Below, piece by piece: positions 62,001 to 64,000 of a DNA stretch of 64,000 nucleotides. Numbering within the stretch: position 1 is the stretch's first letter; each line of letters starts with the position of its first letter. The position numbers were made by a program. Source of the stretch: Escherichia coli (GTDB taxonomy: Bacteria; Pseudomonadota; Gammaproteobacteria; Enterobacterales; Enterobacteriaceae); NCBI RefSeq assembly GCF_003019035.1, contig NZ_CP027447.1. One strand, written 5' to 3'.

Positions 62001-64000
62001 TCCTGTGACATACTATCGGAAGTGCGGTAATTGTATGGAACAGGAGACACACATGAATAATAAGGGCTCCGGTCTGACCCCAGCTCAGGCACTGGATAAA
62101 CTCGACGCGCTGTATGAGCAATCTGTAGTCGCATTACGCAACGCCATTGGCAAATATATTAGAAGTGGCGAATTACCTGATGAAAACGCCCGCAAACAAG
62201 GTCTTTTTGTCTATCCATCACTGACCGTAACCTGGGACGGTAGCACAACCAATCCCCCAAAACGCGCGCATTTGGTCGTTTTACTCACGCAGGCAGCTAC
62301 ACCACCACGATTACTCGCCCTACTCTCTTTCGTTCGTATCTCAATGAACAACTTACGTTGCTGTATCAGGATTATGGTGCGCATATCTCGGTGCAACCCT
62401 CGCAGCATGAAATCCCTTATCCTTATGTCATCGATGGCTCTGAATTGACACTTGATCGCTCAATGAGCGCTGGGTTAACTCGCTACTTCCCGACAACAGA
62501 ACTGGCGCAAATTGGCGATGAAACTGCAGACGGCATTTATCATCCAACGGAATTCTCCCCGCTATCGCATTTTGATGCGCGCCGCGTCGATTTTTCCCTC
62601 GCGCGGTTGCGCCATTATACCGGTACGCCAGTTGAACATTTTCAGCCGTTCGTCTTGTTTACCAACTACACACGTTATGTGGATGAATTCGTTCGTTGGG
62701 GATGCAGCCAGATCCTCGATCCTGATAGTCCCTACATTGCCCTTTCTTGTGCTGGCGGGAACTGGATCACCGCCGAAACCGAAGCGCCAGAAGAAGCCAT
62801 TTCCGACCTTGCATGGAAAAAACACCAGATGCCCGCATGGCATTTAATTACCGCCGATGGTCAGGGTATTACTCTGGTGAATATTGGCGTGGGACCGTCA
62901 AATGCTAAAACCATCTGCGATCATCTGGCGGTGCTACGCCCGGATGTCTGGTTGATGATTGGTCACTGTGGTGGCTTACGTGAAAGCCAGGCCATTGGAG
63001 ATTATGTACTTGCACACGCTTATTTACGCGATGACCACGTTCTTGATGCGGTACTGCCGCCCGATATTCCTATTCCGAGCATTGCTGAAGTGCAACGTGC
63101 GCTTTATGACGCTACCAAGTTAGTCAGCGGCAGGCCCGGCGAGGAAGTTAAACAGCGGCTACGTACTGGCACTGTGGTAACCACAGATGACAGGAACTGG
63201 GAATTACGTTACTCAGCTTCTGCACTTCGTTTTAACTTAAGCCGGGCCGTAGCAATTGATATGGAAAGTGCAACCATTGCCGCGCAAGGATATCGTTTCC
63301 GCGTGCCATACGGGACACTACTGTGTGTTTCAGATAAACCATTACATGGTGAGATTAAACTTCCCGGTCAGGCTAACCGTTTTTATGAAGGCGCTATTTC
63401 CGAACACCTGCAAATTGGCATTCGGGCGATCGATTTGCTGCGCGCAGAAGGCGACCGACTGCATTCACGGAAATTACGAACCTTTAATGAACCGCCGTTC
63501 CGGTAATAAGTTCTGTTCCTTTTTATCAGGAATAGATGTGAAGGATTTAGTAAGTCATCCAGCAAATAGCCTGCAATAAAGCAGGCTGTTTGCTTCCTTG
63601 GGCAGATGCGAGTTTTATTATAGCCTTAATGATTTCCATATATTAAAAGCAAGTATGCTTTCAAAACACAATTATAAAAAAATCCGCCAACAACATTAGT
63701 TTTTATGAGATTAAATATAAGATTATGGATTTAGAATATTTTTATTTCTAATAGACGAGATTTTTCCTGTTATGATATAATATGCCGAATTAACGCATGT
63801 TAACGATTTACCAGTAATGTAAATAAATTTTCGAGGAGATCATTCCAGTGGGACGTAAATGGGCCAATATTGTTGCTAAAAAAACGGCTAAAGACGGTGC
63901 AACGTCTAAAATTTATGCAAAATTCGGTGTAGAAATCTATGCTGCTGCTAAACAAGGTGAACCCGATCCAGAATTAAACACATCTTTAAAATTCGTTATT

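What the first reader, a model, noticed from the sequence alone, without database searches (positions are those of the whole stretch)
62259..62262. amn (AMP nucleosidase) reading frame broken at a short A-run
Seen: the N-terminal 70 codons (from 62053) and the remaining 380-odd codons (to 63506) are in different frames. Inference from the protein continuity expected across the break (…NPPK/TRAFGRF…): one missing A in the run at 62259-62262. This is either a genuine pseudogene or a homopolymer sequencing error.
Basis: partly seen in the sequence, partly recalled or inferred. Interest (0 to 1): 0.3.

Follow-up and report, generated by a model that had tools for sequence, protein, structure and literature searches.

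The report
amn gene broken by one-base deletion
The E. coli AMP nucleosidase gene in this window is knocked out by loss of one C from a run of six Cs (not an A, as first thought); independent sequencing runs carry the same allele, so it is probably a real but ordinary young pseudogene.

Summary
The rest of the protein, residues 71-484, is in the -1 frame from 62262 to TAA 63504-63506. The unshifted frame stops at 62446-62448, giving a 131-aa product.

The interpretation needs one correction. The window has C5A4 (62254-62258, 62259-62262). Intact E. coli genes have C6A4: K-12, the closest relative SCU-301 (0 SNPs over 22 kb) and 2,744 exact core matches among complete genomes. None has C5A5. 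The lost base is therefore a C.

On "pseudogene or sequencing error", the evidence favours a real allele. The exact truncated product is indexed in 55 blocks of public assemblies. Six read-derived contigs from different SRA runs match the window 100% over 2.6-8.7 kb, including C5A4, and one of these contigs occurs in 20 or more samples.

The same deletion appears on many amn backbones. Part of that recurrence is probably long-read homopolymer error: all 12 complete RefSeq genomes found with it have accessions that I judge to date from 2016-2019.

I found no support for programmed frameshifting. Interest is low.

The parts
62053..63506 (+). amn (AMP nucleosidase) pseudogene, start codon to TAA stop. 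It is 1,454 nt, against 1,455 nt in intact alleles.
   Evidence: With one C restored it translates to 484 aa with a single terminal stop. That protein is 482/484 identical to PDB 1T8R and carries AMNp_N plus PNP_UDP_1 domains. Synteny is shiA-amn-yeeN.
62254..62258 (+). C5 tract, the site of the lesion. The ancestral tract is C6, and it is the longest G/C homopolymer in amn.
   Evidence: The only difference from SCU-301 in amn and its flanks is one missing C here. K-12 and 2,744 complete genomes have C6A4. Homopolymer census of amn.
62259..62262 (+). Its length is the same as in intact alleles.
   Evidence: C5A5 is absent from complete genomes.
62053..62448 (+). Reading frame of the truncated product: 70 native residues plus 61 out-of-frame residues, then TGA at 62446-62448.
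   Evidence: Only AMNp_N profile positions 1-57 of 154 are retained. This exact 131-aa sequence is indexed in 55 blocks of public assemblies and counted on 53 contigs.
62262..63506 (+). Displaced (-1) frame encoding native residues 71-484. Gene callers report a 371-aa fragment from GTG 62391.
   Evidence: The 371-aa fragment holds AMNp_N profile positions 99-151 plus the PNP_UDP_1 domain.
62256..62262 (+). C_CCA_AAA, created by the deletion. Formally it is an X_XXY_YYZ -1 slippery heptamer, and a slip here would produce the wild-type protein sequence. No stimulator was found.
   Evidence: Read directly from the sequence. The 80 nt downstream fold at -8.3 kcal/mol, weaker than shuffles (z +1.35). 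Published unstimulated heptamers in E. coli give 2.1-10 times a 0.055% background (PMC4066793).

Best explanation
This is a genuine, evolutionarily young loss-of-function allele of amn. One C was deleted from a C6 homopolymer (codons Pro68-Pro69, CCC CCC to CCC CC), most plausibly by replication slippage. Translation from ATG 62053 leaves the native frame after Lys70 and stops at TGA 62446-62448. The 131-aa product keeps only about a third of the N-terminal AMNp_N domain and has no catalytic domain. The strain should therefore lack AMP nucleosidase activity (AMP + H2O -> adenine + ribose 5-phosphate), apart from a trace of spontaneous -1 ribosomal slippage at C_CCA_AAA. Shown here: the lesion, its position, the ancestral state C6A4, the absence of any second lesion, and the presence of the identical allele in independent read-derived assemblies. 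Inferred: the slippage mechanism, the loss of enzyme activity, and that the SRA runs are short-read data.
For: The closest complete genome, SCU-301, is identical to window 41999-64000 except for two 1-nt indels, with 0 mismatches in 22,003 columns. One of those indels is the missing C, so SCU-301 has C6A4. K-12 is C6A4. Among complete genomes, 2,744 match the C6A4 35-nt core exactly and none matches C5A5. With the C restored, the ORF is complete with no other defect, which indicates a recent event. The exact 131-aa product is indexed in 55 blocks of public assemblies and counted on 53 contigs. Logan contigs L008, L009, L011, L012, L013 and L015, from different SRA runs, are 100% identical to the window over 2.6-8.7 kb and all carry C5A4. 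L008 is recorded in 20 or more samples. The window therefore agrees base for base with independent assemblies wherever it can be cross-checked. It shows only this one homopolymer difference from SCU-301 in about 25 kb, so the assembly does not look error-ridden. On another backbone (P0003) the same frameshifted product is indexed in 197 blocks. The contigs sampled come from runs spanning a wide range of SRA and ENA accession numbers, plus NCBI genomes. That shows C5A4 can be a heritable lineage marker.
Against: The platform of the SRA runs could not be checked with these tools. The tract is clearly prone to long-read homopolymer miscalls. All 12 complete RefSeq genomes found with C5A4 have accessions from CP014522 to CP035846, which from my own knowledge of accession chronology I date to about 2016-2019. 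Several GenBank assemblies with C5A4 also have neighbouring genes broken (shiA split in L017, L024, L028, L034 and L036). The window's own source genome and its reads were not identified. The matching runs fall in a few accession ranges, so they may all descend from one strain. That would still validate the allele, but not its frequency.
Confidence: 0.85

Rival explanations
1. Homopolymer under-call. The strain really has C6, and the assembly lost one C during long-read consensus calling, so amn is intact.
For: C5A4 occurs in 12 complete RefSeq genomes from unrelated backbones, all with accessions I date to 2016-2019 and none later. It also occurs in GenBank long-read-looking assemblies whose neighbouring genes are fragmented too. 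The window's source genome is not among the RefSeq complete E. coli genomes searched.
Against: Six read-derived contigs from different SRA runs are 100% identical to the window over up to 8.7 kb and all have C5A4, and one of them is recorded in 20 or more samples. An assembly artefact private to one genome cannot explain that. The window shows no other homopolymer discrepancy against SCU-301 in about 25 kb and none against those contigs.
Confidence: 0.1
2. One reading: the ancestral tract was C5A5 and an A was lost from the A-run at 62259-62262.
For: At the protein level it cannot be told apart from a C deletion, because CCA and CCC are both Pro. One contig, L019, does carry C6A3, so the A-run can also differ.
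Against: No complete E. coli genome has C5A5. The relative with 0 SNPs, K-12 and 2,744 others have C6A4.
Confidence: 0.02
3. Functional recoding. The gene is still expressed at a useful level by -1 ribosomal frameshifting at C_CCA_AAA (or by transcriptional slippage), so it is a hypomorph or a regulated gene rather than a pseudogene.
For: C_CCA_AAA in the zero frame is a formal X_XXY_YYZ heptamer, and a -1 slip there restores exactly the wild-type sequence (inference). Heptamers ending in A_AAG with a CCC or GGG first triplet are among the best shifters in E. coli when stimulated (PMC4066793).
Against: There is no downstream stimulatory structure: -8.3 kcal/mol, with 188 of 200 shuffles folding at least as well. 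No Shine-Dalgarno-like element is visible upstream. Unstimulated motifs give only about 0.1-0.5%. The arrangement is not conserved, since nearly all genomes are in frame. Runs of 4-5 bases are too short for efficient transcriptional slippage (established knowledge).
Confidence: 0.03

Closest known systems
E. coli K-12 AMP nucleosidase Amn (b1982; PDB 1T8R/1T8S/1T8W/1T8Y)
   Same: Same locus and synteny (shiA-amn-yeeN). The repaired protein is 482/484 identical, differing only at N34K and T37R. It has the same AMNp_N plus PNP_UDP_1 domain architecture.
   Different: The window copy lacks one C in the C6 tract at nt 202-207 of the gene. It therefore encodes a 131-aa truncated product instead of the 484-aa enzyme.
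amn entries flagged 'pseudogene, frameshifted' by NCBI PGAP in RefSeq genomes (e.g. 2015C-4498, 2013C-3513, FORC_082, CRE10)
   Same: Identical lesion (C5A4) at the identical position, and the same 131-aa-type product.
   Different: They lie on different amn backbones, 30-33 SNPs from the window. Some of them may be long-read consensus errors rather than real mutations.
Homopolymer (simple-sequence) contingency loci / phase-variable genes
   Same: Gain or loss of one base in a mononucleotide tract switches the reading frame. Both C5 and C7 versions of this tract exist in public assemblies.
   Different: The tract is only 6 nt, amn is a housekeeping salvage gene, and no ON/OFF mixture within a clone was shown. 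This looks like ordinary mutational decay rather than an evolved switch.
Programmed -1 frameshift sites of E. coli (dnaX, IS911/IS3)
   Same: A heptamer of the X_XXY_YYZ form sits at the frame junction.
   Different: There is no stimulatory hairpin, pseudoknot or SD-like element. The out-of-frame arrangement is a rare variant and is not conserved.

Membership tests
AMP nucleosidase (Amn, EC 3.2.2.4) | N-terminal AMNp_N domain (PF10423) followed by a PNP_UDP_1 catalytic domain (PF01048) | tested here: met
   On the intact counterpart (SCU-301, 0 SNPs from the window's amn): AMNp_N E 1.9e-51 over residues 12-167, and PNP_UDP_1 E 2e-21 over residues 266-431. In the window both domains are present, but AMNp_N is split across two frames.
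AMP nucleosidase (Amn, EC 3.2.2.4) | Orthology with the characterised E. coli enzyme (sequence and genomic position) | tested here: met
   482/484 identity to PDB 1T8R over the full length. Position between shiA and yeeN, as in K-12.
AMP nucleosidase (Amn, EC 3.2.2.4) | Uninterrupted reading frame able to yield the 484-aa enzyme | tested here: not met
   Frame shift after codon 70 and stop at 62446-62448. The locus is therefore filed as an amn pseudogene, not a functional member.
AMP nucleosidase (Amn, EC 3.2.2.4) | Enzyme activity (AMP hydrolysis to adenine + ribose 5-phosphate) | not testable with these tools
   Needs an enzyme assay on the strain.
Genuine pseudogene by single-base homopolymer deletion | Closest intact relatives have a tract one base longer, and there is no other lesion | tested here: met
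   SCU-301 has C6A4 against C5A4 in the window, with 0 SNPs. The repaired ORF is complete.
Genuine pseudogene by single-base homopolymer deletion | The allele is reproduced in independent sequence data from the same lineage | tested here: met
   Six 100%-identical Logan contigs from different SRA runs carry C5A4, and one of them is recorded in 20 or more samples. The sequencing platform of those runs was not verifiable.
Genuine pseudogene by single-base homopolymer deletion | Read-level support in the source genome itself | not testable with these tools
   The source assembly and its reads were not identified.
Programmed -1 ribosomal frameshift | Slippery heptamer X_XXY_YYZ in the zero frame at the junction | tested here: met
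   C_CCA_AAA at 62256-62262. It is an automatic by-product of deleting a base inside a C-run followed by an A-run.
Programmed -1 ribosomal frameshift | Downstream stimulatory RNA structure or upstream SD-like stimulator | tested here: not met
   The fold of 62263-62342 gives -8.3 kcal/mol, z +1.35. No GGAGG-like sequence is visible upstream.
Programmed -1 ribosomal frameshift | The two-frame arrangement is conserved among homologues | tested here: not met
   C5A4 was found in 12 of 5,426 complete genomes, against 2,744 with the in-frame C6A4 core.
Phase-variable contingency locus | Tract-length variants, both shorter and longer, on near-identical backgrounds or within one clone | tested here: inconclusive
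   C5 (window) and C6 (SCU-301) occur on a 0-SNP backbone. C7 products exist, including 2 contigs on this backbone. No within-sample mixture or reversion could be examined, and long-read errors confound the counts.

The most novel reading that the evidence does not exclude
The C6 tract at codons 68-69 of amn is a real mutational hot spot at which E. coli lineages repeatedly lose AMP nucleosidase, and could regain it. The losses would be favoured in some niches, for example through a larger adenylate/ATP pool, and C_CCA_AAA slippage would leave a trace of enzyme. That would make this a low-grade contingency switch rather than neutral decay. Hints in its favour: C5 products form a 90% cluster with 139 distinct member sequences, and all 15 listed members switch frame at this point. 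C7 products also exist. A 1-bp amn insertion became fixed in a 1,200-day stationary-phase K-12 lineage (PMC7858067). An amn knockout is reported to raise ATP and cold tolerance (title cited).
Probability: 0.08. Interest if true: 0.35.

Novelty: already known. Interest (0 to 1): 0.08.

Why it matters
It matters little beyond annotation hygiene. The locus should be annotated as a frameshifted amn pseudogene, with the lesion placed in the C-run (62254-62258). The strain is predicted to lack AMP nucleosidase, a non-essential adenylate-salvage enzyme.

The useful general points are methodological. First, when a deletion falls at the junction of two homopolymers, protein continuity cannot say which run lost the base; only DNA of close relatives can. 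Second, the same tract is miscalled or mutated in many public assemblies, so counts of "recurrent" frameshifts taken from databases mix real mutations with long-read errors.

Tried and rejected
- **Missing A (C5A5 ancestor).** Rejected. No complete genome has C5A5, and all intact references have C6A4.
- **One-off assembly error.** Judged unlikely because of the identical read-derived contigs from many runs. It is kept as a 10% rival because platform metadata were unavailable.
- **Programmed frameshift.** The heptamer is present, but there is no stimulator and no conservation.
- **Recurrence on 6 or more backbones as proof of a true hot spot.** Weakened after I saw that all 12 complete-genome cases have accessions I date to 2016-2019 and that several GenBank cases sit in assemblies with other broken genes.
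- **Literature.** Searches for a described amn pseudogene or homopolymer hot spot in E. coli found nothing specific. The Morrison & Shain knockout paper (PMC2412920) is not held, and one search returned noise.
- **Promoter/terminator scan of the locus.** Nothing informative.
- **Source genome.** I could not identify it. It is not among the RefSeq complete E. coli genomes. Look-up of the 371-aa fragment returned other backbones only.
- **Check for pervasive homopolymer errors in the prophage part.** Comparison with a 97% identical relative (KFu019) found only a few ambiguous C-run differences, at about 1815 and 18271. This was not decisive.

Full report
**1. What is in the sequence**

Between shiA (60635-61951) and the end of the window lies amn. 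ATG 62053 opens a frame that reads MNNKGSGLTPAQ...DGSTTNPPK through codon 70, AAA at 62260-62262. The rest of the protein, TRAFGRFTHAG...RTFNEPPFR (414 residues), is read from 62262, one base back. It ends at TAA 63504-63506, followed by a second TAA. The unshifted frame continues as RAHLVVLLTQ... to TGA 62446-62448, so the predicted product is 131 aa: 70 native residues and 61 out-of-frame residues.

The tract at the junction is AAT CCCCC AAAA CGC. C5 occupies 62254-62258 and A4 occupies 62259-62262.

**2. Which base is missing**

A megablast of the locus against 5,426 complete E. coli genomes found amn in 5,412 of them. The best hit, strain SCU-301, was 99.9% identical with one gap. Aligning the two shows that the only difference in 1,561 nt is one extra C in SCU-301, which reads AATCCCCCCAAAACG.

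Over window 41999-64000 the two genomes have 0 mismatches and two 1-nt indels in 22,003 columns. The other indel is a T at 45619, upstream of an RHS gene.

K-12 MG1655 is also C6A4. Short core queries gave these counts among complete genomes:

| Tract (flank) | Genomes matched |
|---|---|
| C6A4 (ACCAAT), exact | 2,744 |
| C5A5 (ACCAAT) | 0 |
| C5A5, exact 90-mer | 0 |
| C7A4 (ACCAAT) | 0 |
| C5A4 (ACCAAT) | 8 |
| C5A4 (ACTAAT flank variant) | 4 |

**3. Identity of the gene**

The intact counterpart has AMNp_N (PF10423, residues 12-167) and PNP_UDP_1 (PF01048, residues 266-431). It is 482/484 identical to the crystallised E. coli AMP nucleosidase 1T8R, differing at N34K and T37R.

The frameshift falls inside AMNp_N. 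The 131-aa product keeps profile positions 1-57 of 154 and has no catalytic domain. With the C restored, the window's gene has no other defect, which points to a recent event.

**4. Real mutation or sequencing error**

An exact-sequence look-up of the window's 131-aa product found it indexed in 55 blocks of public assemblies and counted on 53 contigs.

- Six Logan contigs are 100% identical to the window over 2.6-8.7 kb and carry C5A4. They come from runs SRR28455352, SRR28454915, SRR27538782, SRR28454873, SRR27539045 and SRR27538748.
- A seventh contig differs at one base outside amn.
- The longest of the six identical contigs is recorded in 20 or more samples.
- These contigs are assembled from the runs' own reads, so an error private to the window's assembly cannot explain them.
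- Wherever the window can be cross-checked it agrees base for base. It shows just this one homopolymer difference from SCU-301 in about 25 kb.

I put the probability that the allele is real at about 0.85. The reservation is that I could not verify the sequencing platform of those runs or find the source genome's own reads.

**5. Recurrence, and a caveat**

- All 15 listed members of the 139-member cluster of truncated products switch frame at the same point...NPPK|RAHLV.
- Of the frameshifted loci I inspected at DNA level, all are C5A4 except L019, which is C6A3.
- The lesion sits on backbones that differ by 6-36 SNPs within amn.
- On one backbone (P0003) the product is indexed in 197 blocks. 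The sampled contigs come from runs across a wide range of SRA and ENA accession numbers, plus NCBI genomes, so it behaves as an inherited marker.
- C7 (+1) products and frameshifts at the A6 run at nt 766 also occur.

However, all 12 complete RefSeq genomes with C5A4 have accessions from CP014522 to CP035846. From my own knowledge of accession chronology I date these to about 2016-2019. Several GenBank assemblies with C5A4 also have shiA in pieces. A good part of the apparent recurrence is therefore probably long-read homopolymer under-calling, and database counts cannot be read as mutation counts.

L007 and L014 share the window's first 433 nt of amn but diverge on both sides. They may share the event through recombination rather than represent a separate one.

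**6. Mechanism and alternatives**

The simplest mechanism is slipped-strand deletion in the longest G/C run of the gene, giving a null allele.

The deletion happens to create C_CCA_AAA in the zero frame. This is a formal -1 slippery heptamer, and a slip there would yield the wild-type protein. But the downstream 80 nt fold more weakly than shuffled sequence (-8.3 kcal/mol, z +1.35), and no SD-like stimulator is visible upstream. In E. coli, unstimulated heptamers give only 2.1-10 times a 0.055% background (PMC4066793). The two-frame arrangement is also a rare variant, not a conserved one. Programmed recoding is therefore not supported; at most a trace of full-length enzyme is expected.

A contingency-switch reading is not excluded but is weak. 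The tract is only 6 nt, and no within-clone mixtures were shown. Two hints point to possible selection. A 1-bp amn insertion became fixed in a long-term stationary-phase K-12 lineage (PMC7858067). An amn knockout is reported to raise ATP and cold tolerance; I saw only the title, because the paper is not held.

**7. Comparison with the known, and verdict**

This is the well-characterised E. coli amn gene carrying a lesion that NCBI's pipeline already labels "frameshifted" pseudogene in other genomes. It is ordinary.

- the missing base is a C from 62254-62258;
- the relevant read check is five versus six C;
- independent data favour a genuine allele.

Literature searches found no specific description of this amn lesion. 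Novelty: already known. Interest: about 0.08.

Noticed in passing
window 834-17672 (- strand): A prophage terminase large-subunit gene is split by a roughly 15-kb element. The N-part is at 16479-17672 (TerL_ATPase plus the start of TerL_nuclease) and the C-part at 834-1559 (TerL_nuclease positions 64-283). The inserted element carries its own tyrosine integrase (15250-16509), a complete terL (2087-3748), portal/protease/capsid ORFs (5109-8080) and an AAA_25 helicase-like ORF (10048-11463). It looks like a phage-like element integrated into the terL of another prophage. The same layout is annotated in strain KFu019.
   Followed up: partly
window 1-38821: The first ~38.7 kb is prophage DNA ending at an integrase (37654-38679) next to tRNA-Ser(cga) at 38732-38821. 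SCU-301, otherwise identical downstream, lacks it at this site. No complete RefSeq E. coli genome covers more than 66% of window 1-25000.
   Followed up: partly
window 39813-59007: There is a second island at tRNA-Asn (39813-39888). It holds an integrase (39948-41312), an RHS core protein (45643-49422) and an intact 2,685-aa yeeJ-like inverse-autotransporter ORF (50950-59007). In several other genomes that ORF is annotated as frameshifted.
   Followed up: no
window 45619: This is the only other difference from SCU-301 in 22 kb. The window has an extra T (CCAGATGAGCC against CCAGAGAGCC) 24 nt upstream of the RHS ATG. It is not in a homopolymer. It shortens the maximal ORF from 1,274 to 1,259 aa but leaves the annotated start unchanged.
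   Followed up: partly
L019 (SRR3987700), amn nt ~198-210: This contig has C6A3 instead of C5A4 on the P0003 backbone. It encodes the same truncated protein from different DNA. It arose either by an A-to-C change at the junction of a C5A4 allele or by an independent A deletion.
   Followed up: no
window 18271-18278 and ~1815: C7 runs in the prophage differ by one base from the 97%-identical KFu019 prophage (C8, or CCCCCTCC). The one at 18271 falls in a small hypothetical ORF in KFu019. Whether these are real differences or miscalls is undetermined.
   Followed up: no
RefSeq genomes H90-H101: All 12 complete RefSeq E. coli genomes with the C5A4 amn tract have accession numbers from CP014522 to CP035846, which I date to about 2016-2019. 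This suggests era- or platform-specific homopolymer errors inflate 'pseudogene' calls at this tract.
   Followed up: partly
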